This document shows positions 8,333 to 64,000 of a stretch of 64,000 nt of DNA, one piece after another. The notes below the pieces were generated by a model. That model was not told the origin of the DNA, ran no database searches, and worked only from the letters and a program-made list of their open reading frames with translations. Both the position numbers and the translations under genes were made by a program. Numbering within the stretch: position 1 is the first letter of the stretch; each line of letters begins with the position of its first letter. The DNA is from an uncultured Thermoleophilia bacterium (GTDB lineage: Bacteria; Actinomycetota; Thermoleophilia; UBA2241). Location of the stretch: the NCBI GenBank assembly GCA_963702475.1, contig CAVPCT010000006.1:313709-377708 (forward strand), given 5' to 3'.

Positions 8333-8528
8333 GGCGCCCAACGTATCAGAACGACGGGGGCCGCCGCCGACGGCTGGGGCCGCGGCCGGGGGCCGACCCG
8401 CCTGACGACGATCAAGGCGGCCCGGGAGTTTGTCCTGTATTCTTGGGGAAAGACCTCATCGGGCCGCGGCGCGCCGCCGGCCGCGGCGCCGGTCCCTGAC
8501 GGCCGGCGTCATCTCCGCAAAGGACGCT

Positions 8529-10019
8529 ATGAAGATCCGCCTCATCGAGCCCGCAGCCCCCAGCATGCACCTCTGGTCCATGTCCTACTTCGTGCGGCTC
8601 GGCCTGCCCATCATCGGAGCGACGCTCAAGCAGGCCGGGCACGACGTCCGGATCTACAACCCTCAGCTCGCGCCCATCGACTGGGACGACGTGTTCACGT
8701 CGGAGCTGGTCGGCCTCTCCTCTACCACCTCCACGGCTCCGGCCGCCTACGACATCGGCGACGAGCTTCGCCGCCGCCGCATCCCCGTCATCGTCGGCGG
8801 GTCGCACGTCACCTTCATGGCTGAGGAGGCCCTCGATCACGCCGACTTCGTCGCGCGCGGCGAGGGCGGCGAGCAGACCATGTTGGAGCTGGTGGACGCC
8901 ATGGAAGGGCGCAAGCAGATCGCCGACGTGACCGGCATCTCGTACCGCCGCAACGGCGAGACGGTGCACAACCGGCTGCACGAGCGCTGCACCGACCTGG
9001 ATACCCTGCCGTTCCCCGACCTCGACCTCGTGGTGGGCAAAGAGCGCCTCGTCAACACGCCCATCATGACCAGCTGGGGCTGCCCGTTCGACTGCACGTT
9101 CTGCTCGGTGACGGCCATGTTCGGCAAGAAGTACCGCTTTCGCAGCGCCGAGAGCGTGATCGCCGAGATCAAGCAGAAGGATCCCGAGAAGATCTTCTTC
9201 TACGACGACAACATGGCGGCCAACCGCAAACGCCTCAAGCGCCTGCTGCGCATGATGATCGACGAGGGCATCAAGGTGCGGTGGGGCGCGCAGGTGCGCA
9301 CCGACGTCGTGCGTGACCGCGAGCTGCTGGAGCTCATGCAGGCTTCGGGTGCCGACTTCGTCGCCCTCGGCCTCGAATCCGTGAGTCAGGCGACCCTCGA
9401 CCACTTCGAGAAGTCGCAGACGGTGGAAGACATCGAGCACGCCGTCAAGGTGCTTCACGAGTACGGCATCCGCACCCACGGCATGTTCGTGCTGGGCGCG
9501 GAGCACGACGAGGGGGACTTCGTGCGCGACACCGTCGACTTCGCGCTCAAGAACCGGATCGACACGGTGATGATGAACATCCTCACGCCGCTCCCCGGTA
9601 CCCAGCAGTTCGAGGAGCTGGAGGCGGCAGGGCGCCTCATCACCAAGGACTGGCGCCTGTACGACGCGCAGCACGTGGTGTTCTGGCCGCGCCACATGAG
9701 CCCGGCGAAGCTCCAGCGCGACGTGCTGCGCGAGCAGCGGCGCTTCTACAAGACCTCGCGTCCTGTGTACTGGTTCCTCGGCTGGCTGCGCGGCCGCGAC
9801 CAGGCAAGCTGGGACCGCATGCTCGAGTCCGGCTGGCTGTGGTGGTACGCCCGCATGTGGTGGAAGGATGCCGGCAATCGTGAGCACCTGCGCATGCTCG
9901 AGGAACTGCCTCCCTACGTTCCGCCGGCACCCGCTCCCGCGGCGCGGGACGCCGCTCCCCGCGAGCCGCGGCACCGGCACGAAGAGCCGGCGGTGTGTGA
10001 GGGCGCGTCGCGGGCGTAG
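8529..10019 (+). CDS. B12-binding-domain radical SAM protein (paralogue 1)
   Basis: GGSHVT..GEGGE cobalamin-binding region, CPFDCTFC motif, FFYDDN, GLES and TPLPGT. Confidence 0.92.
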
Positions 10020-14474: not shown

Positions 14475-15317
14475 TCACGTCTTCTCGCCGTCGCCCCCGT
14501 ACGGCACGGGGATGTACTCCACCGACGGCCGCCGCTGCGTCCGCCGTGGGTAGAGGTCCATGAGCGCGTAGACCTCGTCGGGCAGCCCTTCTTCCACCGG
14601 CAGTCCCAGCCGCCCAGCCTCGTCGAGCCTGATTGGGTAGTCGTGGGTCCAGCGGCCCTCACTCAGGGTGGCGGCCAACTCGGCCGCGCGCTCCGGGAGT
14701 CGGTCGCGCACGAGTTCCTCCACCGTGTCGCGGACCTGGGCGATCGCCTTGCGCGAGAGGTCTCCCAGGATCAACGTCTGGTCGTCGCGGTTGGGGTTGG
14801 GCTCCTCCAGGGCGGCGAGGACGGATGCGGCCGGCCACATGCCCCGCAGCGGGTTGCCGAGCTGGGGGTCGACCGGCCCGAGCACTGCGTCGGCGTCCAT
14901 CAGGATGGCGTCGGCGGCGAGTGCCACCAGGGTACCGCCCGACATGGCGTAGTGCGGCACCAGCACAGTCACCCTGCCCGGGTGTCGCCTGAGCGCGTAG
15001 GCGATCTGGTCCGAGGCCAGCACCAGGCCGCCCGGTGTGTGCAGGATCAGGTCGATGGGCATCTCCGGCGGCGTCATGCGCACTGCCTTGAGCACCTGCT
15101 CGGAGTCCTCCACGTCGATGTAGCGGCCGAAGGGGATGCCGAGCAGGCCGACGCTCTCCTGGCGGTGGACCATCGTGATGACGCGCGAGCCGCGGCGCTG
15201 CTCCAGCGCACGGATCAGGCTGCGCCGCCTCTTGTCACGGCGGCGGCGCAGCCAGCGCGGCAGAAGCCACGCGAGGGCAAGAAACGCGGCGATGACGAGG
15301 AGCAAGACCCAGATCAT
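14475..15317 (-). CDS. ClpP-class membrane serine protease (SDH_sah/DUF114)
   Basis: N-terminal TM, LHTPGG, YAMSGGTLVALAAD, LGPVDPQ and WTHDYPI. Confidence 0.9.
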   Translation of the reverse strand: MIWVLLLVIAAFLALAWLLPRWLRRRRDKRRRSLIRALEQRRGSRVITMVHRQESVGLLGIPFGRYIDVEDSEQVLKAVRMTPPEMPIDLILHTPGGLVLASDQIAYALRRHPGRVTVLVPHYAMSGGTLVALAADAILMDADAVLGPVDPQLGNPLRGMWPAASVLAALEEPNPNRDDQTLILGDLSRKAIAQVRDTVEELVRDRLPERAAELAATLSEGRWTHDYPIRLDEAGRLGLPVEEGLPDEVYALMDLYPRRTQRRPSVEYIPVPYGGDGEKT

Positions 15318-52262: not shown

Positions 52263-53678
52263 GTGAGAATACGGCTGATCGAGCCAGGGCCCACGAGCCT
52301 GCACCTGTGGTCGTACTCGAGCTACCCCCGCCTCGGCCTGCCGATCATCGGCGCAGCCCTCAAGGCAGCCGGCCACGATGTGCTCATCTACTGCCCGCAA
52401 GTGGCCCCGATCGTCGTCGCCGACGTCTTCAGCGCGGATCTGGTCGGGATCTCGACGACGACGTCGACCGCTCCCGAGGGCTACAGGATCGCCGACGCAC
52501 TGCGCGCACGTGGAGTACCCACCGTCATCGGCGGCTCGCACGTCACCTTCATGCCGGAGGAGGGCCTCGAACACGCCGACTATGTGGCCCGCGGCGAGGG
52601 CGGCGACGAGCTCATCCTCGAGCTCATCGAGGTCCTTCAGGGCGGGCGCCTGCCCGAGACCGTCGCCGGCCTCTCCTTCCGGCGCGACGGCCGGACGGTG
52701 CACAACGAGCTGCGCGAGCACCGTCCGAACATGGACGAGTTGCCGGTGCCGGACCTCTCGCTGATCGCGGGCGTCGAGGCCATGAAGTCGACGCCGATCA
52801 TGACGAGCCTGGGCTGTCCCTTCGACTGCAACTTCTGCTCGGTCACGTCTATGTTCGGGCGCCGGTACCGCTACCGCAGCGCGGAGCACGTGATCGCGGA
52901 GCTCGAAGACAAGCGGCCGCGGCGCATCTTCTTCTACGACGACAACTTCGCGGCCGACAGGAGACGCCTCAAGACGTTGCTGGGCCTCATGATCGAGCGC
53001 GGTCTGGTCGTGCCCTGGTCGGCGCAGGTGCGCATCGATGTGGCGCGCGACCCCGAGCTCCTGACCCTCATGCGGCGCTCGGGCTGCGAGCGTCTCAGCC
53101 TCGGGCTGGAGTCCGTCAACCAGGCCACGCTCGACAGCTACAAGAAGGCGCAGAGCGTGGACGACATCGTGGCCGCCATCCGCACGATCCACGATCACGG
53201 CATCAAGGTCCACGGCATGTTCGTGGTGGGCGCCGACAGCGACACCGCGCAGACCGTGCAGGACACCGTGGACTTCGCCCTCGAACACGGCATCGACACC
53301 CTGATGCTGAACATCCTCACGCCCGGCCCGGGCACGGGTCAGTTCGATGAGATGAAGGCCGAGGGGCGCCTCTTCGACAAGCGCTGGGAGTTCTACGACG
53401 GACAGCACGTCGTGTTCACCCCGAACCAGATGTCACCTCGCGAGTTGCAGGCCGAGTGGCTGCGGGCCTACGCGCGCTTCTACTCATCGCGTCGCTGGAT
53501 CGGCGAGCTCCTCGCTCTGCGCCGCGGTGAGCCGCTCGTCCACACCTGGGGCTGGGTGTATGCGCGCCTGTGGCCCAGAGGCCGGGCCAACCGCGCCTAC
53601 ATGCGGGGTCTCGCCCAGTACACCGAGGCCATGGCCCCGGTCACGGGTCGCCCCGTCTCCAGGAGCAGGCGACCCTAG
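52263..53678 (+). CDS. B12-binding-domain radical SAM protein (paralogue 2)
   Basis: CPFDCNFC motif; colinear with and very similar to 8529-10019. Confidence 0.92.
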   Translation: MRIRLIEPGPTSLHLWSYSSYPRLGLPIIGAALKAAGHDVLIYCPQVAPIVVADVFSADLVGISTTTSTAPEGYRIADALRARGVPTVIGGSHVTFMPEEGLEHADYVARGEGGDELILELIEVLQGGRLPETVAGLSFRRDGRTVHNELREHRPNMDELPVPDLSLIAGVEAMKSTPIMTSLGCPFDCNFCSVTSMFGRRYRYRSAEHVIAELEDKRPRRIFFYDDNFAADRRRLKTLLGLMIERGLVVPWSAQVRIDVARDPELLTLMRRSGCERLSLGLESVNQATLDSYKKAQSVDDIVAAIRTIHDHGIKVHGMFVVGADSDTAQTVQDTVDFALEHGIDTLMLNILTPGPGTGQFDEMKAEGRLFDKRWEFYDGQHVVFTPNQMSPRELQAEWLRAYARFYSSRRWIGELLALRRGEPLVHTWGWVYARLWPRGRANRAYMRGLAQYTEAMAPVTGRPVSRSRRP

Positions 53679-55660: not shown

Positions 55661-56040
55661 CTACAGGTCTTCCTCGCACGTATCGCGTGTCGTGGCCGAG
55701 CGTCGTCTCCGCAGTGCCATCAGGACGGCCGCCAGCGCGAGCCCCGCGGCGTCTATCAACGCGGCGGTGACGAAGGCGCTGCTGTAGCTGCCCTGCGCCT
55801 CTTGGATCGCGGCCCCCAGGCGGGGGCCGAGCACCGCCGAGACGGCCACCGTGAGGAACATGATTCCTAGTTGATCGGCAGGTGCCGCAGCCCGAAGGCC
55901 TCGGCCGTCGTCGGCCCGATGAGGGCGAGGAACCCGCCGCAGCAGAAGCCCATGGTCGTGATGCCGGTGACGAGGGTCGCGTAGCTCGATGCGTTCGCCA
56001 GCAGGAGGAGCGTCGCACCCTCGCGCGCAAACATCACGGC
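55661..56040 (-). pseudogene. C-terminal remnant of an OFA-like MFS transporter
   Basis: GFCCGGFLALIGPTTAEAFGLRHLPIN shifts frame into GIMFLTVAVSAVLGP..GSYSSAF. The N-terminal half is absent. Confidence 0.7.
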
Positions 56041-56127
56041 GACCACACGCGGCCGCGTCGCGCCCTCGTAGGCACTCTGCCACCCGCCTTAATCACCAGG
56101 TGGCTAGGCATCGCTGGCGGCCGCCGA

Positions 56128-57730
56128 CTAGGCTGTGAAGTACATCAAGTTGTAGCGATACCGACAGGCTGACAAACCGTCGACGTCAGGGACCACTCCG
56201 CTGAGGTGGTTGCTGTGGCCGTCGAGCGCAGTGTCCCACTCCCAAATCAGCAGGCCGCCACGCTCGTACTCGATTTGCGCGGCCGCTCCGACGAGCTCGT
56301 TGCGCCTGGTTTCGTCCACCGTCCTGAACGCCTCGTTGACGATTCCCAGCCACTCGGCGTCCCTCCAATGTGTCTCGTTAAGACGGGCGGAGGGAAGGCT
56401 GCAAAACGCGGCCTGGGCAAGGTAGTCGTGAGTCGGCCAGTAGTCCTGGGCGAACGTCCACTTGAGGTAGGACTCGCCCCACATGATGCTTGGGTCAACT
56501 TGATTCACCTTCACCGTCACGCCTGCACCCTTGGCCTGCTCGGCGAAGACTTGGGCTGCAGCCACCATGCCAGGACCGACGCCTGTGGACGTGACGAGCT
56601 CGACACTCAGCCCCTGCTGACCCGCCTGCTCGAGCAATGACTTCGCTTGCTCGAGGTCCTGCACTCGCTGCGGCAGATCCCCAGGGTAACCGGGGTCGAA
56701 GACCCCGTACATGTCGTTGCCAGGGGATCCGTACCCTGACAGGGCTTGATCGATCATCTGTTCACGATCGACAATGAGGCGGAAAGCCTGTCGGACTCTC
56801 TCGTCGTCGAACGGCGGCTGGTCGACGCGCATGGTAAAGGGACGCCATCCGCCACTCTTGGCTTGGAGCAGCGTCAAGCCAGCGGTGGACTTGACCACCT
56901 TGGCCTGCGCGCCATCAACGTAGCCGATGTGATCGACGGTCCCCCCCAGCAGAGCGTTCAGTCTCGACGTAGGGTCAGCGAAACAGACTAGCGTTAGCCT
57001 GTCAGCGTTGGGGCCTTCGCCCCAGTAGTTGGGATTGGCCCTTAGTTCGGCCTGCTGGCCCGGGTCGAATCTCTCGACGATCCAGGGGCCAGTCCCGATG
57101 GCGCCAGCGGCATCCTTGGGTTCGAAGCCGACGGGGACGATGGCATTGTTGATGGTTGCCAGCCCTTCGTGGAAGACGGCGTTTGGCTCCTCCAGGACAA
57201 ACCGCACGGTGCGGTCATCGAGCTTCTTCACGCTGCCAGGTCGGAGACCGCGCAGCAACTCGCGGCCGTTTGCGAAGGTCTTGGGAGACAGGATCCGCTC
57301 ATATGTCCAGATGACATCGTCTGAAGTGACCGTTTTGCCGCTGTGGAACTCGAGACCCGCCTTGAGGCGAACTGTATGTTCGCTCCCGTCTGCGTTGTGC
57401 TCGTAGGACTCCACGAGCTGCTTAATCAAGTTGTGTTGTTCGTCCCAGCCAAGCAGCGATTCGTAGAGCTGATACGACATGGCGATTTCCGGCTCGCTGG
57501 TCCTGAAATGGACGTCCAGGTCATCGTTCGTTGACCCACCCGTGATGCCCGACCTGACGTGGCCGCCCTTGGTCGGCTCGGAAGCGACCGAGGACAAGGC
57601 AGTTGCGGGCGAGTAGGAGGAGTCGTCATTTGATTCTCCGCAGGCGGAAACAAGGGAGCCAAGGCCTAGTGTCGCCCCAATGCCGGCTGCCAGCTTCAGA
57701 GCGTCACGCCGCGTTAACACTGAATCCATG
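56128..57730 (-). CDS. ABC family-5 (Opp/Dpp-type) substrate-binding lipoprotein with Tat signal
   Basis: TRRDALK..LVSAC twin-Arg lipobox, LYESL, IGTGPW, NPNYW and PFDDERVRQA. The ORF is open to 57780. Confidence 0.92.
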
Positions 57731-58245
57731 AGATGTGGCCCGCTGACGTCGACTTCACCCTCGACACCTTCCCGTACCATCTCTGCTCCCTCCCAAGCGC
57801 CTGCAGGCCGATGGCCCGCCCTCCTCGTACATGCTGTCCCTTCGTCACTGGCCTCCTACCGCCGGTGATATGGCCAGGACTTCATTCACTGACCAGGTCT
57901 GTAGCTCGAGGGCACCCTGGGGTGATAGGAAGATAGGGACGAGCACCTTGTCGACCGAGGCGGAGCATGCTGTGCACGGGTTGGGCGATAAGTCCAGCAC
58001 GATTGCACGGCTCGGTGCCAGCCTGCAGATGACGAGCTCCGTCGTACTCAGCGTGCATATGACGAGGAGTACTTCTGAAGGATCGGCCGGGACGATCGAA
58101 GAAGGCGCGACTCGAGCGCGCAGGAGAGCGCAATGCATGGCGGGTGGGGCGGCTCAACGGCCGCCCCACCCGATTCCTCTGGAGTCCCATCTCAGTAGGA
58201 ATCACTGTTTCACATCCTTATTACTTCGCCCTGAGGAGGCGACGC

Positions 58246-59619
58246 TCAAGCCTCCTGAAGGCTCGGCTCACTCGCAGCCTTCTCCTGAAGGCGCGGCTCG
58301 CCAGCGATCCCGCTGGCCTCCAGCAAGGTGAGGTCCCGCGTCTCCGGGGCCCACAGATGGGAAGCGATTGCCCCGATGGCACAGACACCGCCAAAGATGA
58401 CCATCGTCCACGAGATACCTACCGCAAGCAACAGACTGGGGAAAACCCACGTTGAAAGCACCGACCCGATGCGGGCGCCTGCGACCGTGACACCTTGGCC
58501 GGAAGCGCGTACTTCGGTCGGAAAGAGCTCCGGCGGGTAGACGAACTCCAGGTTCGAAGCTGCGTTCAGAACGAAGATGAACACCAGGAACACGACGAAG
58601 GCGACTGGTATCGGCAGTGTAATGCCAAGCACAGCCGAAGCCGCTGCGCAAATCCAGAAGGACCAGATGACCCAGCCTCTCCTTGGGAGTCGCGCGCACA
58701 GCCAGACACCCACGATCATCGCCACCAGAGTCAGCGCATCCACGAGGCCGTAAGCGAAGTTCCCTTGCCCAAGCCTGAGCCCAGCCAACACTTCGGGCAG
58801 GAACAGGTAGACGGCGAAGAAGACGCTGACCTGTGCCGTGTAGAAGATCACTGAGAACGCCGTGCGCGCCCGATACTTCGAGCCGAACAGTACGCGGTAG
58901 GAAATGCGTTTGTTGCTCTCGGCCGTCAGGTCGCCGACGTCGTAGTCCGCTCCGTAGTGCCGCTTGACCAGCGCACGAGCTTCGTCGACTCTGCCCTTGC
59001 TGACGAGCCAGCGAATCGATTCGGGTGCGCGCAGACCCAGCACGAACGCCACCAGCATTGGAAGGAAGGCGGTCGCCAGGACCCACTTCCAGGACACACG
59101 GTCGCCCAAGAACAACGCGCCATAGTAGGCGATGATGAAGCCGACCATCCAGACCACGTTCAAGTTCGACAGGAGACTGGAGCGACGCTTGCGCGGCGAA
59201 AACTCTGACAGCAGGGGCGCTGCTATGGACAGAATGGTCCCGACGCCCACGCCGACGAGGATGCGCAAGACCAGGAAGGAGACCTTGTCCCAAACCAAGA
59301 GATAGGCGAAAGAGGCTGCCGCGGTCACGAGGAGAGCGGTCATGAGGACGCCGTGGCGGCCGAGCTTGTCAGCTAGCCAGCTGCCGAGCAGCGCGCCGAA
59401 GAAGATGCCAATCAGCGCACCGGCAGTGAGCAGCCCCTTCCACCCTGCAGAAACTCCGTAGTCGTCACTCACTGAGCCCATCACGATCGCCAAGGCCCCG
59501 AAGACGTATCCGACGGCTAGATAGGACACCAGGTTCATCGACACCACACGCACCAGGAACGGGCTCCATGGTGCGTTCTCTATGCTTGCTGGCTGGCCCA
59601 CTGCTCCCCCTTCACCCAT
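58246..59619 (-). CDS. MFS transporter (sugar-porter/metabolite:H+ type)
   Basis: LADKLGR, PLLSEFSP, PESIRWL, YPPELFPTEVRASG and APETR. Confidence 0.93.
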   Translation of the reverse strand: MGEGGAVGQPASIENAPWSPFLVRVVSMNLVSYLAVGYVFGALAIVMGSVSDDYGVSAGWKGLLTAGALIGIFFGALLGSWLADKLGRHGVLMTALLVTAAASFAYLLVWDKVSFLVLRILVGVGVGTILSIAAPLLSEFSPRKRRSSLLSNLNVVWMVGFIIAYYGALFLGDRVSWKWVLATAFLPMLVAFVLGLRAPESIRWLVSKGRVDEARALVKRHYGADYDVGDLTAESNKRISYRVLFGSKYRARTAFSVIFYTAQVSVFFAVYLFLPEVLAGLRLGQGNFAYGLVDALTLVAMIVGVWLCARLPRRGWVIWSFWICAAASAVLGITLPIPVAFVVFLVFIFVLNAASNLEFVYPPELFPTEVRASGQGVTVAGARIGSVLSTWVFPSLLLAVGISWTMVIFGGVCAIGAIASHLWAPETRDLTLLEASGIAGEPRLQEKAASEPSLQEA

Positions 59620-59632
59620 GACGTTGTTTCCA

Positions 59633-59755
59633 CTTCATGATGAAGGATGATAAGCCGCCTCGCAGCTGTGTCAAGGGCCAGGCAAATGATCCGACAGCAT
59701 TCCCGCCTCCTGCGCTTGACAAGTCAGGTTCACTCAGAGATATTCTACTTCATGT
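59633..59755. promoter_or_regulatory. Divergent sigma70-like promoters with CTTCAT operator-like sites
   Basis: Minus strand: TTGACA (59674-59669), 16 nt, TATCAT. Plus strand: TTGACA (59716-59721), 17-19 nt, GATATT/TATTCT. Palindrome CTTCAT-G-ATGAAG at 59633-59645 and ACTTCATG repeated at 59747. Confidence 0.65.
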
Positions 59756-59791
59756 TGGGGCTGAAATCTTGCGCGGTATGGATTCTGCAGG

Positions 59792-59927
59792 CCGCTAGAG
59801 GGCCGGCCCAAAACCGGGGCCGGACTCGCCCCACTACGTCTGGGGCGAACGATCCAGCCGCTCTCCCTGCGAGCTGACTCTCCAGTCGGTCGAAGTGAGA
59901 TAGACGTCTCGGTAGCCGCTCTAGCGG
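59792..59927 (+). ncRNA. Candidate structured 5' leader of the mttB operon
   Basis: Closing stem CCGCTAGAG/CTCTAGCGG encloses hairpins CCGGCCC/GGGCCGG and TCGCCCCA/TGGGGCGA plus two shorter ones. Confidence 0.4.
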
Positions 59928-59957
59928 ACTTCCAACGCGTGGCACGAAAGGAGATTG

Positions 59958-61433
59958 ATGATGAGACGTGGATCACAAACCGCTCTTCATAGCGGGGGTG
60001 CATCGCTCAGCCTTTTCAGTAGAGCTGATCTGGACGACCTGCATTCGGCCACAGTCCAGGTCCTTGAACGCGCAGGCGTGCTCGTGGAGAGCGAAGAGGC
60101 GGTGGACATCTTCGCAGACGGCGGTTGCCGCGTGGACCGGGACACGCATGTCGTGAAGATCCCGGAGCATGTACTCGCTGACGCCTTGGTATCAGCGAAA
60201 TCGAGCTTCCTGATGTGCGGTCGCGACCCCGAGAAGGACGTGGTCGTGGAGGTCGGCCGCAGCTTGGTCGTGCCGTTCGCAGAGGGGCTGGCGGTCAACG
60301 ACCTCGACACCGGTGAGAACCGCCCGTCCACGGAGAAAGACGTGGCGGAGATCTGTCGCCTCGCCGACGCCCTCGAGCAGATGGACTTCACCCTGGTCGC
60401 CGTCACGGCGCGCGACCGGCCGATTGAGACGGCCGCGGTGCACAACTTCGCGGCGGCTCTGCCTAACACCACGAAGCCGCTGCAGATGTCGATGACCACG
60501 CGACACGAGGCCGAGCTGGTCCTCGACATGGCCGCTGCAGTCGTGGGCGGCCGCGATGCTCTTCCTGAACGGCCGCTTGTCGTCTTCGGCAGCTGTCCCG
60601 TGGCCCCGCTGTACCTCGGTAGGATGCTCACCGACTCGCTCATCCCCGCGGCACGGCTCGGCCAGCCGTTCCTGTGCGTGTCAATGGGCATGGCCGGGGG
60701 CTCCACGCCGATCACGCTCGCCGGCACGCTCGTCGTCCAGAACGCGGAACTGCTGGCCACCTATGTTCTTACGCAGCTCGTGAACCGAGGCAACGCCTTC
60801 CTCTACGGGAACTCGACCTGCACGATGGACCTGCGATGGGGGTCAGGCGCAGTCGGCACTCCGGAGACCGCCCTCTACCAGGCCGGCAGCGCGGCATTGG
60901 GGACGTACTATGGCCTACCAACCTGGTCCGCCGGCTACTAGGCTGACTCGAAGGTGAGCGACTGCCAGATTGGGCACGAGAAGACACTCACCGGACTTGC
61001 GGCGTTGCTGGCAGGGTCCAGCGTCGTCTACGGCCCCGGGATGGTCGAGTCTGGCGTGACCTTCGACTTGGCGCAGTTCGTCATCGACGATGAGATCGTC
61101 GCGATGACGCGGTTCTTCCAGCGGGGAGTGGCCGTCAACGACACCACGACGTCGATCGAGGAGATTATCAGCGTCGGTCCGGCCGGCAGCTTCCTGGAAA
61201 GGGACAGTACACTCAAGGGCTTCCGAGGCCTCACCTCACCACGGCTCATCGACCGCAAGGTCCGCGAGGCCTGGAAGGAGGACGGCTCGCCGGACTTCTA
61301 TCTGAAGGGTCGCGAGAAGGCGAAGCAGATCCTCGCCGAGCACGAGGTGGAGCCGCTCGACGACGACCTGGCGGCCGAGATCCAAGCGATCGTCGCGAAG
61401 GCAGACGCACAATACGCCGGTGTCACGGTCTGA
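59958..61433 (+). CDS. mttB: MttB-family methylamine:corrinoid methyltransferase with in-frame amber (pyrrolysine) codon at 60939-60941
   Basis: ORFs 59955-60941 and 60954-61433 are in the same frame and separated by one TAG in WSAGY*ADSKVSDCQIGHEKT. Also GGSTPITLAGTLVVQNAE and GTPE motifs, AAAGGAGA SD, ~490 aa when joined. Confidence 0.92.
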
Positions 61434-61498
61434 ACACGAATCAGGAATCCCTACTCATGGGGAACGAACCCACGAACCGCGAAAAGGACCAGGATCCT

Positions 61499-62125
61499 AT
61501 GGCAGACTTCGAGTCCCTCAAGCAGATGATCGTCGACGGCAACGACGCCGCCACGGCCGCCACCCAGGCGCTCGTGGACGGCGGCGCCTCCGCCCGCGAC
61601 ATCCTCGACAACGCCCTCCTGCCGGGCATGGACGTGGTCGGCGCGCAGATGAAGAGCGGCGACAAGTTCATCCCCGAGGTGCTGCTCAGCGCCCGCACCA
61701 TGCAGACCTGCCTCGACATCATCAAGCCGCTCCTCGGTGAGGGCGGCGGCTCGCTCGGCACGGTCGTGATCGGCACCGTCGAGGGCGACATGCACGACAT
61801 CGGCAAGAACCTCGTCGGCATGCTCCTCTCCGGGGCCGGCTTCGAGGTCGTCAACCTCGGCAAGGGCATCACCCCCGCCGATCTGGTCGCCGCCTGCAAG
61901 GAGCACGACGCCGACATCCTCGGCATGAGCGGCCTGCTGACGACCACCATCCCGAAGATGCCCGAGACCATCCAGATGCTCAAGGACGTCGGCCTGCGCG
62001 AGAAGGTCAAGGTCATCGTCGGCGGCGCCCCCGTCTCGGCCGATTGGGCCGCAGAGATCGGCGCCGACGCCTACGGCGCCAACGCCTCGCTGGGCGTCGA
62101 GAAGTGCAAGGAGCTCATGGGCTGA
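61499..62125 (+). CDS. mttC: Methyltransferase cognate corrinoid protein
   Basis: FIPEVLLSA, GTVEGDMHDIGKNLV (DxHxxG), SGLLTTT and VGGAPV. Confidence 0.93.
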   Translation: MADFESLKQMIVDGNDAATAATQALVDGGASARDILDNALLPGMDVVGAQMKSGDKFIPEVLLSARTMQTCLDIIKPLLGEGGGSLGTVVIGTVEGDMHDIGKNLVGMLLSGAGFEVVNLGKGITPADLVAACKEHDADILGMSGLLTTTIPKMPETIQMLKDVGLREKVKVIVGGAPVSADWAAEIGADAYGANASLGVEKCKELMG

Positions 62126-62138
62126 CGCCCTGAGATGT

Positions 62139-62173
62139 CCGGCCCCGGTCCGGCGGCTGCGGACCGGGGCCGG
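62139..62173 (+). terminator. GC hairpin after the corrinoid gene
   Basis: CCGGCCCCGGTCCG-N7-CGGACCGGGGCCGG, a 14-bp stem. Confidence 0.6.
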
Positions 62174-62269
62174 CTGGTGAATCTCGCGGAGCCGGCCCTT
62201 CGTTTGACGTACTCTGAGACGCAGCAAACGTCCCCTTCCCGACCAACCACCGAGTAGGACGCGACGAGG

Positions 62270-62413
62270 CTAGTGCCCCGAGTCAGAGATCCGCTGGCAA
62301 TAGGCGGCGAGGGTAGTGAGGATCTCATCGGCGGGCGCTCCACGAGGTTGAGCCAGGACGAGTAGGTGGGCGTGAAGTGGAAGGTGAAGCGCGGATGACG
62401 CAGGAGCCAGCGG
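62270..62413 (-). mobile_element. IS630-family transposase 3' remnant
   Basis: RWLLRHPRFTFHFTPTYSSWLNLVER, then after an internal deletion ADEILTTLAAYCQRISDSGH*. Confidence 0.85.
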
Positions 62414-62414
62414 A

Positions 62415-63449
62415 ATGAGTGAGGACCTGTACTCCCGGCTTGCGGCTGCTCTCGACAGGCTGCCCGGGCGCTTTCCATGCACGCCTTCGGGGACAGAGGT
62501 GCCATTGCTGCAGCACCTCTTCAGCACCGCACAGGCGGAACTGGGCGCAGTCATGGGCCGGGATTACGAGGACGTGGAGCTGATTGCCTCTCGAGTGGGC
62601 CGTCCCTTCCGGGGCGTGGGCGTAGAGCTCGCGCGAATGGCTGAGCGCGGGTTGGTGCTCGGCAGAGAGCGCGACGATCGGCCGACCTACCGCCTGAGGC
62701 AGTTCCTCGACGGGATCCTAGAGCGGAACATAGACCGCATGGGGCCCGAACTGGCCCACCTCTACGAAGCCTACATGGACGACGGTGGTGCGCGACTGCT
62801 GATGGGGGATCCGGCCTATGCGCGCGTGCTGCCGGGGGAGAAGGCCATCCGCTCGGACTGGATCCTGCCCTACGACGACGTGCGCTCGATCCTCGAGCAG
62901 ACGACCTCGATTGTTGTAGGAGACTGCTTCTGTCGAAAGGAGCGAGCACTCGCCGGTGCCCCTTGCCGCTATCCGCTGAACGTTTGCCTCAACCTACGCG
63001 GCGCGCAGACGACCGACGCGAGGACGATCTCCACGGCTGATGCACTGCGCTTGCTCGACGAGGCCGAAGAGGCTGGCCTTGTCCACACCGTCACCAACGT
63101 GTGTGGGGGCTGGGATTGGCTATGCAACTGCTGCTCCTGCTGCTGCATGTGGCTGCGCGGCTTCACCGAGTGGCAGATAGACACGGCCGTGGTGTCCAAC
63201 TACCGCGTCACGATCGAGGCGAGTTCATGTTCGGGTTGCGGAGTCTGCGAGGAACGCTGTCCAGTGGCGGCGATCTCTGTGGCAGACGAGCGAGCGCGCC
63301 CACGGCGAGAGTCATGTATAGGCTGCGGACTGTGTGTTACGTCCTGCCCCACGAGCTCCTTGCAGCTGGAGCGTCTTCCCGAAGCCGCCATCATCCTTCC
63401 ACCGTCAGACCATGAGGCGTGGGAAGACGAGAGGCTGCGTGGGCAATGA
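62415..63449 (+). CDS. Multi-Fe-S protein with C-terminal 2x[4Fe-4S] ferredoxin domain
   Basis: CFCR..C..C, EEAGLVH..CNCCSCCC, CSGCGVCEERCP and CIGCGLCVTSCP. Confidence 0.9.
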   Translation: MSEDLYSRLAAALDRLPGRFPCTPSGTEVPLLQHLFSTAQAELGAVMGRDYEDVELIASRVGRPFRGVGVELARMAERGLVLGRERDDRPTYRLRQFLDGILERNIDRMGPELAHLYEAYMDDGGARLLMGDPAYARVLPGEKAIRSDWILPYDDVRSILEQTTSIVVGDCFCRKERALAGAPCRYPLNVCLNLRGAQTTDARTISTADALRLLDEAEEAGLVHTVTNVCGGWDWLCNCCSCCCMWLRGFTEWQIDTAVVSNYRVTIEASSCSGCGVCEERCPVAAISVADERARPRRESCIGCGLCVTSCPTSSLQLERLPEAAIILPPSDHEAWEDERLRGQ

Positions 63450-63608
63450 TGCCGAGTCAGGGTGTTGAAACGCGCGGGGATGAGCGAAGCACATGGCGCA
63501 GCCTTCGGGCTGAGGAGAGCGGAGAGTGATACTGTCTGCCTCTGGTAGCGAGAGATGGACGGATGAGATGGGAGCGTTGTGATCGCGGAGTCGGGCAATG
63601 ACAGAAGC

Positions 63609-64000
63609 ATGAAGAGCCCCCGAAAGCCTTCGTGGCGACGCTCCCTGGGACCCGACGCGGACACCTCTTCCACTGTAGACCTCATCCTGGCCACCGCCAG
63701 AAGGCTCTTGATCGAACACGGTTACCGCGCTCTGACTTTCGACAGTGTCGCGCAGGAACTGGGGTGCGACAAAGGCACGATTGCCTACCACTTCGGCAAC
63801 AAGATGGGTCTTGTCACTGCCGTTCAAGACTCGCTCGTGCACGACATATTGGCATCGATTATGCAGGACGTGCGTGAGACAGCAGGCAAGACCGACACGA
63901 GCACTGTCGCCAAAGCGATTCTGGTCGCCACTGACGCTCGGGGCGGATGGCTTGACGTCATGCCCTACGCCATCCGCAATCCTGAGCTCAGGAAGATCCA
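63609..64000 (+). CDS. TetR-family regulator (3'-partial)
   Basis: ILATARRLLIEHGYRALTFDSVAQELGCDKGTIAYHFGNK HTH; runs off the window end. Confidence 0.88.
   Translation, partial: MKSPRKPSWRRSLGPDADTSSTVDLILATARRLLIEHGYRALTFDSVAQELGCDKGTIAYHFGNKMGLVTAVQDSLVHDILASIMQDVRETAGKTDTSTVAKAILVATDARGGWLDVMPYAIRNPELRKI

What the first reader, a model, noticed from the sequence alone, without database searches (positions are those of the whole stretch)
59958..62125. Pyrrolysine-type amber codon in an MttB methyltransferase in a high-GC, Actinomycetota-like genome
Seen: two same-frame ORFs split by one TAG (60939-60941, about codon 329) that join into a full ~490-aa MttB. The context is AGY-TAG-ADSK..Q.GHEKT, and a corrinoid protein gene follows. 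Known: Methanosarcina MttB has Pyl at the equivalent position (O334, context AG.O.DAK..DQ.GHEKT), while non-Pyl MtgB-type members have an ordinary residue there. Bacterial Pyl is best described in Firmicutes and Deltaproteobacteria. Inference: this organism decodes UAG as Pyl for anaerobic methylamine demethylation, a genetic-code expansion in a lineage not usually linked to it. Standard annotation would call it two fragments or a pseudogene.
Basis: partly seen in the sequence, partly recalled or inferred. Interest (0 to 1): 0.92.

Follow-up and report, generated by a model that had tools for sequence, protein, structure and literature searches.

The report
Pyrrolysine-encoding trimethylamine methyltransferase in Thermoleophilia
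This gene for a trimethylamine-demethylating enzyme carries an in-frame stop codon that the organism, an uncultured high-GC actinobacterium, almost certainly reads as the rare 22nd amino acid pyrrolysine; the kind of gene is well known, and its presence in this lineage has been noted in print but hardly described.

Summary
One TAG (window 60939-60941) joins two same-frame ORFs into a 491-aa MttB (59958-61433). A corrinoid protein gene follows (61457-62125). The TAG aligns with the pyrrolysine position of the solved Methanosarcina MttB, and the joined protein passes NCBI's equivalog cut-off for the Pyl-type enzyme.

The same genome holds pylB, pylC, pylD, tRNA-Pyl(CUA) and pylSn in one cluster, with pylSc 15 kb away. 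Each of the five protein genes scores over its curated family cut-off. At least 21 further mttB, mtbB and mtmB genes carry one TAG at the family's Pyl column.

The organism is an uncultured Thermoleophilia (Actinomycetota). PylSc was found in 73 of 79 sampled genomes of its family and 9 of 61 of a second family. It was found in none of 260 other Thermoleophilia and none of about 369 other Actinomycetota sampled.

TAG still ends about 15% of ORFs and RF1 is present, so decoding is ambiguous, not reassigned.

It is not new as a kind. A 2022 PylRS survey lists a Thermoleophilia and an Actinobacteria genome, and a 2023 peatland study reports Actinobacteriota expressing Pyl-encoding mttB and mtbB. 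The new points are the family-wide spread and the size of the Pyl gene set.

The parts
59958..61433 (+). mttB, trimethylamine:corrinoid methyltransferase, 491 codons with one in-frame TAG. AAGGAG lies at 59948-59953, 4 and 7 nt before the ATGs at 59958 and 59961.
   Evidence: Pfam MTTB 5.8e-87; TIGR02369 569.7 bits, cut-off 525; PDB 7xcm 3.3e-95.
60939..60941 (+). TAG codon 328, inferred pyrrolysine codon.
   Evidence: It aligns with X (Pyl) of PDB 7xcl. It shares its column with the TAGs of 13 other paralogues. Two DNA assemblies keep it unchanged.
60939..61038 (+). Match to Rfam PYLIS_3 (RF02510), starting at the TAG. Read here as conserved coding sequence, not as a demonstrated RNA structure.
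   Evidence: 39.8 bits against gathering 38. Most model pairs are non-canonical in this match. Fold z-score +0.39, and 128 of 200 shuffles fold at least as well.
61457..62125 (+). mttC-like cognate corrinoid protein, 222 aa, with DMHDIG (the DxHxxG motif, recalled) in its B12-binding domain.
   Evidence: Pfam B12-binding 1.1e-26 and B12-binding_2 1.1e-14. NCBIfam pyl_corrinoid TIGR02370 scores 168.8, below its cut-off of 215.3. It is 91-94% nucleotide-identical to copies beside three other Pyl-mttB genes.
62141..62171 (+). A 12-bp perfect inverted repeat (62141-62152 / 62160-62171) just after mttC. Possibly a terminator hairpin, but no T run follows.
   Evidence: Read directly. Not tested with the terminator scan.
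62415..63449 (+). 344-aa protein with two 4Fe-4S motifs at its C-terminus and no family match at its N-terminus. Possible electron carrier for corrinoid reactivation (inference).
   Evidence: Pfam Fer4 1.8e-12, at 265-317 only. No NCBIfam family over cut-off. No RACo/RamA Pfam match among the families listed for this protein.
63579..64000 (+). TetR-family regulator that runs off the window and contig end. It continues on contig C7.
   Evidence: Pfam TetR_N 9.2e-14. C6's last 1585 bp equal C7:1-1585 at 100%.
58246..59619 (-). MFS transporter, divergent from mttB. Candidate substrate importer (inference).
   Evidence: Pfam Sugar_tr 1.1e-48 and MFS_1 2.3e-34.
56128..57780 (-). Family-5 ABC solute-binding protein at the start of the lower-GC stretch.
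   Evidence: Pfam SBP_bac_5 1.2e-75. GC is 60-66% over 56001-64000 against about 70% for the genome.

Best explanation
The gene is a genuine pyrrolysine-type mttB in an uncultured, probably anaerobic Thermoleophilia bacterium (Actinomycetota) that decodes some UAG codons as pyrrolysine.

Shown by computation:
- The TAG sits at the catalytic Pyl position of MttB.
- The genome makes Pyl (pylBCD) and charges it onto a CUA-anticodon tRNA-Pyl with a split PylSn + PylSc synthetase.
- The same genome has at least 21 more methylamine methyltransferase genes with a TAG at their Pyl column.

Inferred mechanism:
1. During translation of mttB, Pyl-tRNA(CUA) competes with RF1 at codon 328. This gives the full 491-aa enzyme beside a truncated 327-aa product.
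2. MttB uses Pyl to bind and activate trimethylamine and moves one methyl group to the Co(I) corrinoid of the adjacent MttC. Dimethylamine is left for the MtbB paralogues and monomethylamine for MtmB.
3. The methyl group passes from the corrinoid to tetrahydrofolate and into a Wood-Ljungdahl pathway, either for acetyl-CoA synthesis or for oxidation.
4. RamA/RACo-type activases reduce inactive Co(II) corrinoid.

UAG is not reassigned. It still ends about one ORF in seven.

This particular copy lies in a lower-GC stretch with a transporter, a ferredoxin-domain protein and a TetR regulator. It has no close orthologue in sampled congeners, so it was probably acquired or duplicated more recently than the pyl genes.
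For: Position:
- The TAG falls on the Pyl residue of solved MttB.
- 14 of 14 TAG-bearing paralogues, among 54 aligned, have the TAG in one column.
- In 13 other genomes of the class, all 50 homologues at E <= 1e-100 carry exactly one TAG.

Family: TIGR02369 equivalog, 569.7 bits against 525.

Machinery in the same genome, on the 1.14-Mb contig C3:
- pylB 438 bits (cut-off 348), pylC 324 (248), pylD 209 (150), pylSn 126 (51), pylSc 315 (178).
- ARAGORN calls tRNA-Pyl(cta) at C3:641046-641118. Its drawing shows a 6-bp anticodon stem and a short D arm.
- The pyl genes have host-like GC of 64-74%.

Other Pyl genes:
- 7 full-length mtbB plus 2 pieces, with all 9 TAGs in one column.
- 1 mtmB whose TAG aligns with the K that stands at the Pyl site in PDB 1tv2.

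Downstream pathway:
- AcsB/CdhC at C5:445925.
- RACo_C_ter matches at three loci (four matches, two of them adjacent).
- Three pterin-binding methyltransferases, one of each beside acsB.

Ambiguity of UAG:
- TAG ends 403 of 2681 crude ORFs, which is 15%.
- prfA scores 477 bits against a cut-off of 423.

Lineage:
- TypA gives 84-91% identity to MAGs titled Thermoleophilia.
- PylSc is in 73/79 genomes of the own family, 9/61 of a second family and 0/260 of the other families of the class.
- Thermoleophilia PylSc form one clade (95/96) inside the bacterial split type.

Sequence: the TAG is unchanged in contigs of two DNA runs from two studies.
Against: - No protein evidence. Pyl incorporation and TMA activity are inferred from homology.
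- The genome is a MAG (93.8% complete, 6.5% contaminated).
- This mttB sits in a 60-66% GC stretch at a contig end, in a 70% GC genome.
- Its best match in 12 same-genus genomes is only about 50% identical.
- A scan of species-representative genomes found only two Deltaproteobacteria MAGs, at 40-41%. So this copy could be foreign or recently transferred.
- The corrinoid protein is below NCBIfam's pyl_corrinoid cut-off (168.8 against 215.3).
- No methylcorrinoid:THF methyltransferase or RamA lies in the window itself.
- The RNA-library contig across the TAG has one unlocated mismatch. An RNA library does not by itself prove transcription.
- TAG is a frequent stop, so much of the product may be truncated unless the pyl genes are induced.
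Confidence: 0.92

Rival explanations
1. The organism does decode Pyl, but this copy is a recently transferred or redundant xenologue. It contributes little, is silent or mostly truncated, or acts on a substrate other than trimethylamine.
For: - It has the lowest GC of the 14 Pyl-mttB genes (65% against 67-72%), within a 60-66% GC stretch.
- There is no close orthologue in 12 congeners (about 50% identity).
- Its only close relative is an 81% identical paralogue at C3:301162-302622.
- The genome already has 13 other Pyl-mttB genes.
Against: - The frame is intact over 491 codons apart from the Pyl TAG.
- It scores over the equivalog cut-off and has its own corrinoid gene and a good ribosome-binding site.
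- Contigs of an RNA library cover parts of it, including the TAG.
- Near-identical DNA was laid from freshwater, lake-water and wetland metagenome runs of three studies (X1, X2, X7). The run index lists holders in 11 studies.
Confidence: 0.12
2. A binning or assembly chimera: the mttB stretch at the end of contig C6 belongs to another organism than the pyl genes on C3.
For: - MAG contamination is estimated at 6.5%.
- GC drops from about 70% to 60-66% over the last 8 kb of C6.
- There is no close orthologue in congeners.
Against: - The stretch is joined to 370 kb of 70% GC sequence in one contig.
- Its last 1585 bp are identical to the start of C7, which itself carries TAG-bearing mttB and mtbB genes.
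- Its mttC is 91-94% nucleotide-identical to copies on C3, C5 and C9.
- An 81% identical mttB paralogue lies inside C3.
- A 78-bp repeat after mttC recurs on C3, C5 and C6.
- Even if this were true, the genome would remain a Pyl decoder with 13 other Pyl-mttB genes.
Confidence: 0.04
3. A pseudogene or sequencing error: the TAG is a nonsense mutation or a miscall in an ordinary MttB-family gene.
For: The genome does have some degenerate copies, for example C5:363600-365036 with 2 TAG and 1 TGA, and apparently frame-shifted mtbB genes.
Against: - The TAG is exactly at the Pyl column.
- The rest of the frame has no other stop or shift.
- Two assemblies from other runs have the same codon.
- A complete pyl system is present.
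Confidence: 0.01

Closest known systems
Methanosarcina barkeri MttB (Pyl334), PDB 7xcl/7xcm, with its corrinoid protein MttC
   Same: Full-length homology (E 3.3e-95, residues 13-489 on 14-495). The TAG/Pyl is at the same aligned position. The motif after it is conserved (..D.K..D.Q.GHEKT). A corrinoid protein gene lies directly downstream.
   Different: The host is a bacterium with a split PylSn + PylSc synthetase, not a methanogen with a fused one. The methyl group most likely goes to tetrahydrofolate and the Wood-Ljungdahl pathway, not to coenzyme M (inference).
Bacterial Pyl decoders with pylSn + pylSc: Desulfitobacterium hafniense, Acetohalobium arabaticum, Eubacterium limosum, Desulfovibrio/Bilophila, the Olavius delta-1 symbiont
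   Same: Same gene set (pylT, pylSn, pylSc, pylBCD). TAG remains in use as a stop. PylSc is about 49-50% identical to the clusters holding E. limosum, an uncultured Desulfovibrio and A. arabaticum, and falls in the same bacterial clade.
   Different: - The phylum is Actinomycetota and GC is 70%.
- pylSc is 15 kb from the rest of the cluster.
- There are far more Pyl genes. At least 22 were found here, against 8 in the delta-1 symbiont, which a 2007 paper called the largest bacterial set then known (passages read). Later records were not surveyed.
Non-Pyl MttB-superfamily members (MtgB glycine betaine, MtcB carnitine, MtpB proline betaine methyltransferases)
   Same: Same fold and family. PDB 9yce and 2qne match at E about 3e-62. 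The genome holds 40 such paralogues with an ordinary residue at the Pyl column.
   Different: The window's gene has TAG there, scores over the Pyl-type equivalog cut-off, and is far closer to the Pyl enzyme (322.6 against 213.8 bits).
Actinobacteriota MAGs of Stordalen Mire expressing Pyl-encoding mttB/mtbB (Ellenbogen et al. 2023, PMC10805028); the Thermoleophilia and Actinobacteria PylSc in Guo et al. 2022 (PMC9630628, supplement)
   Same: Same phylum and the same kind of gene, called from truncation at the amber codon. Stordalen MAGs titled Actinomycetota appear among the TypA relatives at 74-75%. The supplement's PylSc entries are named Thermoleophilia_bacterium and Actinobacteria_bacterium_ADurb.BinA094.
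   Different: In the passages found by term search, those papers do not describe the pyl cluster, tRNA-Pyl, the family-wide distribution or the size of the Pyl gene set. Guo's table lists no PylSn for either genome, whereas pylSn is present here. I could not tell whether this genome is of the same genus as theirs.

Membership tests
Pyl-type trimethylamine:corrinoid methyltransferase (MttB, TIGR02369 / PF06253) | Full-length homology to MttB over the curated equivalog threshold | tested here: met
   TIGR02369 569.7 bits against cut-off 525. PF06253 292 bits, covering 11-485 of 491.
Pyl-type trimethylamine:corrinoid methyltransferase (MttB, TIGR02369 / PF06253) | In-frame UAG at the position of the catalytic pyrrolysine | tested here: met
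   It aligns with X in PDB 7xcl and K in 7xcm. It shares its column with 13 other TAG-bearing paralogues.
Pyl-type trimethylamine:corrinoid methyltransferase (MttB, TIGR02369 / PF06253) | Cognate corrinoid protein (MttC) encoded alongside | tested here: met
   A gene 23 nt downstream has B12-binding_2 and B12-binding domains. It is below the NCBIfam pyl_corrinoid subfamily cut-off (168.8 against 215.3).
Pyl-type trimethylamine:corrinoid methyltransferase (MttB, TIGR02369 / PF06253) | Pyl actually present in the protein; methyl transfer from trimethylamine to the corrinoid | not testable with these tools
   Needs mass spectrometry and an enzyme assay.
Pyrrolysine-decoding organism (pyl system) | tRNA-Pyl with a CUA anticodon and the unusual fold (6-bp anticodon stem, short D arm, short variable loop) | tested here: met
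   ARAGORN tRNA-Pyl(cta) at C3:641046-641118, with a structure drawing. The list of hallmark features is recalled.
Pyrrolysine-decoding organism (pyl system) | Pyrrolysyl-tRNA synthetase (PylSc catalytic part, PylSn tRNA-binding part) | tested here: met
   TIGR02367 314.6 bits against 178; TIGR03912 126 bits against 51.
Pyrrolysine-decoding organism (pyl system) | Pyl biosynthesis genes pylB, pylC and pylD | tested here: met
   438/348, 324/248 and 209/150 bits (score/cut-off). They are contiguous at C3:637885-640975, directly before pylT.
Pyrrolysine-decoding organism (pyl system) | Genome-wide reassignment of UAG (all TAG = Pyl, as reported for some archaea) | tested here: not met
   TAG ends 15% of 2681 crude ORFs and RF1 is present. 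Among 60 of 62 other TAG-split candidates scanned, only one looks like a single domain cut by TAG.
PYLIS RNA element (Rfam RF02510 PYLIS_3) | Conserved stem-loop structure after the UAG | tested here: inconclusive
   The score is just over gathering (39.8 against 38), but most model pairs are non-canonical in the match. Fold z is +0.39. Mean z is 0.09 over 21 Pyl genes, measured against other windows of the same genes.

The most novel reading that the evidence does not exclude
A whole family of uncultured Thermoleophilia, with part of a second family, forms a third major bacterial Pyl lineage beside Firmicutes and Desulfobacterota. On this reading it inherited one pyl cassette vertically across at least 10 genera. 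It built what may be the largest bacterial set of Pyl enzymes: at least 22 per genome, on top of 40 non-Pyl MttB paralogues. All this happens while about 15% of its genes still end in UAG and RF1 is kept, without any shared RNA signal. These organisms would then be major, overlooked consumers of methylamines in freshwater, wetland and peat sediments, competing with methylotrophic methanogens. They would also be a natural test case for how a cell tolerates large-scale ambiguous UAG decoding.
Probability: 0.5. Interest if true: 0.65.

Novelty: new member of a known kind. Interest (0 to 1): 0.5.

Why it matters
Standard gene callers split this gene, and at least 21 others in the genome, into fragments. 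The organism's main energy metabolism is therefore invisible in routine annotation.

Read correctly, the genome is that of a methylamine specialist within Actinomycetota, a phylum that reviews of the 22nd amino acid hardly mention. PylSc is present in 73 of 79 sampled genomes of its family. Near-identical DNA was laid from freshwater, lake-water and wetland runs of three studies. The lineage may therefore divert methylamines away from methanogens, which bears on methane budgets.

It also offers a high-GC bacterial PylRS/tRNA-Pyl pair, about 50% identical to the nearest characterised ones, and a case of many Pyl genes coexisting with frequent UAG stops.

Tried and rejected
- A search for close relatives of this MttB in species-representative genomes gave only two Deltaproteobacteria MAGs at 40-41%. 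The peptide patterns were too specific, so this says little.
- PYLIS idea. I folded the 90 nt after each TAG in 21 Pyl genes and compared them with other windows of the same genes. Mean z was 0.09. The mttB copies ran from -0.3 to +2.3 and the mtbB/mtmB copies from +0.3 to -1.7. The Rfam PYLIS_3 hit is explained by coding-sequence conservation. I rejected a shared insertion element.
- Search for Pyl in other protein families. A crude screen found 80 in-frame TAGs flanked by coding-like sequence, against 117 for TGA and 17 for TAA. It recovered only 18 of 26 known cases, so its sensitivity is modest. Of the 62 remaining candidates, 60 were scanned as separate halves. Two (C9:19440-20687 and C9:89455-89931) were not fetched. 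The scanned ones turned out to be neighbouring genes in one frame or non-coding frames, except an epimerase (L208) and a repeat protein. I rejected any claim of new Pyl protein families.
- A first attempt to scan them read through with TAG=O failed because too much would have been printed.
- The ferredoxin-domain protein after mttC is not a recognisable RamA/RACo.
- Low or missing contig cover of parts of mttB in runs X7 and X15 is not evidence of absence.
- I did not build a full named phylogeny of PylS. Only three clusters could be named, so the donor lineage stays open.
Full report
**Observation**

The window reads GCC GGC TAC TAG GCT GAC TCG AAG, with the TAG at 60939-60941. Table 11 gives two same-frame ORFs, 59955..60941 and 60954..61433. 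Read through, 59958-61433 is a 491-residue protein with the TAG as codon 328.

- It matches Pfam MTTB over residues 11-485 (E 5.8e-87).
- It matches NCBIfam's equivalog for the Pyl-type trimethylamine methyltransferase, TIGR02369, at 569.7 bits against a cut-off of 525.
- An AAGGAG lies 4 and 7 nt before the two candidate ATG starts.
- Twenty-three bases after its TGA starts a 222-aa protein with B12-binding_2 and B12-binding domains.

**Is the TAG at the pyrrolysine position?**

Yes. In the phmmer alignment to the solved Methanosarcina enzyme, the codon falls on the X of PDB 7xcl and on the K of the 7xcm variant. The flanking motif is conserved.

The genome itself provides a control. PF06253 gives 75 matches. 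I aligned the 54 that cover most of the profile. Fourteen of them carry a TAG, and all 14 TAGs lie in the same column as the window's. The other 40 have ordinary residues there.

Relatives agree. In a search of 20 relatives with this protein, 66 matches reached E <= 1e-100 in 14 of 21 genomes. Of these, 63 have exactly one TAG, including all 50 matches in the 13 other genomes.

**Is the TAG real sequence?**

Logan contigs of two DNA runs from two studies span it without any difference (X1 60707-61159, X2 60804-61002). One of these runs may be the window's own source. A 151-nt contig of an RNA library spans it with one difference whose position was not listed.

**Machinery**

The window is C6:313709-377708 of a 4.31-Mb, 9-contig, 70% GC assembly, estimated 93.8% complete and 6.5% contaminated. 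On the 1.14-Mb contig C3 lie:

| Gene | Position on C3 |
|---|---|
| pylB | 637885-638913 |
| pylC | 638955-640109 |
| pylD | 640193-640975 |
| tRNA-Pyl(CUA) | 641046-641118 |
| pylSn | 642228-642485 |
| pylSc (opposite strand) | 657647-658372 |

- pylSc sits beside a TAG-bearing mtbB.
- All five protein genes exceed their NCBIfam equivalog cut-offs.
- The tRNA drawing shows the 6-bp anticodon stem and short D arm.
- The GC of the pyl genes is 64-74%, like the host's.
- A tRNA-Sec is also present.

**Other Pyl genes**

- MtbB: seven full-length genes and two pieces have one TAG each, all nine in one column.
- MtmB: one gene at 658.6 bits has a TAG that aligns with the K at the Pyl site of PDB 1tv2/1l2q. 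Four homologues have V, M, S or I there.
- In total, at least 22 TAG-bearing methylamine methyltransferase genes (14 mttB, 7 mtbB, 1 mtmB), plus a few broken or frame-shifted copies.
- For comparison, a 2007 paper called 8 Pyl proteins in the Olavius delta-1 symbiont the largest bacterial set known at that time (passages read). I did not survey later records.

**How UAG is read**

- TAG ends 403 of 2681 crude ORFs (15%). TGA ends 81.6% and TAA 3.4%.
- RF1 is present.
- The distance to the next in-frame stop after TAG is no shorter than after TGA.
- A screen for other genes split by TAG found nothing convincing beyond one epimerase and one repeat protein.
- The 90 nt after the TAG are no more structured than other parts of the same genes (mean z 0.09, 21 genes).
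- Rfam's PYLIS_3 matches window 60939-61038 just above threshold, but with most pairs broken. The stretch folds no better than shuffles.

I read this as ambiguous decoding by competition between Pyl-tRNA and RF1, with no cis signal. The hit reflects conserved coding sequence.

**Fate of the methyl group (inferred)**

The genome has the following:

- An acetyl-CoA synthase gene (C5:445925).
- RACo_C_ter matches at three loci.
- Three pterin-binding methyltransferases, with one activase and one methyltransferase next to acsB.

This fits methyl transfer from the corrinoid protein to tetrahydrofolate and into a Wood-Ljungdahl pathway. Whether the direction is acetogenic or oxidative is open.

**Who is it?**

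TypA at the window start is 84-91% identical to many MAGs titled Thermoleophilia, including UBA2241 at 84%.

| Sample | Genomes with PylSc |
|---|---|
| Own family, f1 (10 of its genera) | 73 of 79 |
| Second family, f4 | 9 of 61 |
| Ten other families of the class | 0 of 260 |
| Phylum sample of 401, about 369 outside the class | only this genome and one f4 genome |

These are samples, many of them incomplete MAGs. The result is 'not found in those searched', not 'absent'.

Thermoleophilia PylSc form one clade (95/96 support) inside the bacterial split-type enzymes. They are about 49-50% identical to clusters that hold Eubacterium limosum, an uncultured Desulfovibrio and Acetohalobium arabaticum. 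Fused forms of 374-434 aa, presumably archaeal (none was named), branch apart. This fits one old acquisition and vertical descent. The donor is unresolved.

**This copy in particular**

- Window 56001-64000 has 60-66% GC against about 70% elsewhere.
- This stretch holds a family-5 solute-binding protein, an MFS transporter, mttB, mttC, a ferredoxin-domain protein and a TetR regulator.
- The gene's nearest relative is a paralogue at C3:301162-302622 (81%, also with TAG). The best match in 12 congeners is about 50%.
- The stretch is nevertheless tied to this genome. The last 1585 bp of C6 equal the first 1585 bp of C7.
- Its mttC is 91-94% identical in DNA to copies beside three other Pyl-mttB genes.
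- A 78-bp repeat after mttC recurs on C3, C5 and C6.

I take it as a more recently gained or diverged locus, not a binning error.

**What is known**

- Searches for pyrrolysine with Thermoleophilia, Actinobacteria + pylS, Actinobacteriota, Actinomycetota, and GTDB + pylB, and for mttB with Thermoleophilia, were run.
- Guo et al. 2022 (PMC9630628) state that PylRS genes occur in 'two Actinobacteria' (passage read). Their supplement names Thermoleophilia_bacterium and Actinobacteria_bacterium_ADurb.BinA094, with no PylSn listed.
- Ellenbogen et al. 2023 (PMC10805028, passages read) report Actinobacteriota MAGs expressing Pyl-encoding mttB and mtbB in a thawing peatland. They named the genes by truncation at the amber codon.
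- NCBI already names PylS large subunits in Thermoleophilia MAGs.
- No paper in the library holds both 'pyrrolysine' and 'Thermoleophilia' in a relevant sense.

**Verdict**

This is a correct and well-supported call of a known kind of gene in a lineage where it has been noticed but not described. The family-wide presence of the pyl system and the very large Pyl gene set are the parts worth following up.

Noticed in passing
window 62416-64000 (= G000 C6:376124-377708) and C7:1-1585: The last 1585 bp of contig C6 are 100% identical to the first 1585 bp of contig C7. The two contigs overlap, and the window's locus continues into C7, which carries further TAG-bearing mttB and mtbB genes.
   Followed up: partly
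window 61457-62125; G000 C3:1127493-1128175, C5:930929-931553, C9:317781-318410: The mttC corrinoid gene is 91-94% nucleotide-identical between four Pyl-mttB loci, while the adjacent mttB genes are only about 44-48% identical in protein to the window's. This suggests gene conversion or recent spread of mttC. It also explains the very high contig depth over mttC.
   Followed up: no
window 62335-62412: A 78-bp intergenic repeat between mttC and the ferredoxin-domain gene recurs at 93-96% identity at C6:75539, C3:8038-8115, C5:8627-8704 and C5:926639. No Rfam family matched it.
   Followed up: no
G000 C4:42533-43942 and C4:59973-61373: Two MttB paralogues keep the Pyl-type sequence context (..VAGG-L-(G/S)DGKVSDAQ(A/T)GH) but have Leu instead of TAG at the Pyl column. 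They may be descendants of Pyl enzymes that lost Pyl.
   Followed up: no
G000 C5:571067-572416, C4:65316-66659, C9:248475-249818, C2:42577-43938: Four full-length MtmB homologues (221-308 bits) have no stop codon. They carry V, M, S or I at the column where the true mtmB (C9:301399-302748) has TAG. Their substrates are unknown.
   Followed up: no
G000 C5:869149-870282 (L208), TAG at C5:869790: An NAD-dependent epimerase/dehydratase domain is cut by one TAG: Pfam Epimerase positions 1-119 lie before it and 125-234 after it. It could be a pseudogene, an error or a read-through site.
   Followed up: partly
G000 C5:889589-892951 (L203), TAG at C5:891682: A large repeat-rich surface protein (Big_9, CarboxypepD_reg) has a TAG in '..GASVR-TAG-PNPMV..', where the following repeat units have W. 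It looks like a TGG-to-TAG change.
   Followed up: no
G000 C3:167171-167268: A tRNA-Sec (UCA) is present, so the organism probably uses both the 21st and the 22nd amino acids. Selenoprotein genes were not searched.
   Followed up: no
genomes G110, G002 and G014 (same genus): G110 (93% complete) has three mttB homologues with one TAG each, but no PylSc was found in it. G002 and G014 are 1.7-1.8 Mb, 98% complete, in 1-2 contigs, and also lack PylSc. This suggests loss in streamlined members.
   Followed up: no
window 8430-10019 and 52263-53678: Two B12-binding radical SAM genes lie in the window, in a genome rich in corrinoid enzymes.
   Followed up: no
window 14943-15029: ARAGORN calls an 87-nt tRNA-Gly(gcc), but Rfam's tRNA model does not reach its threshold there. 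It may be a false call or an odd tRNA.
   Followed up: no
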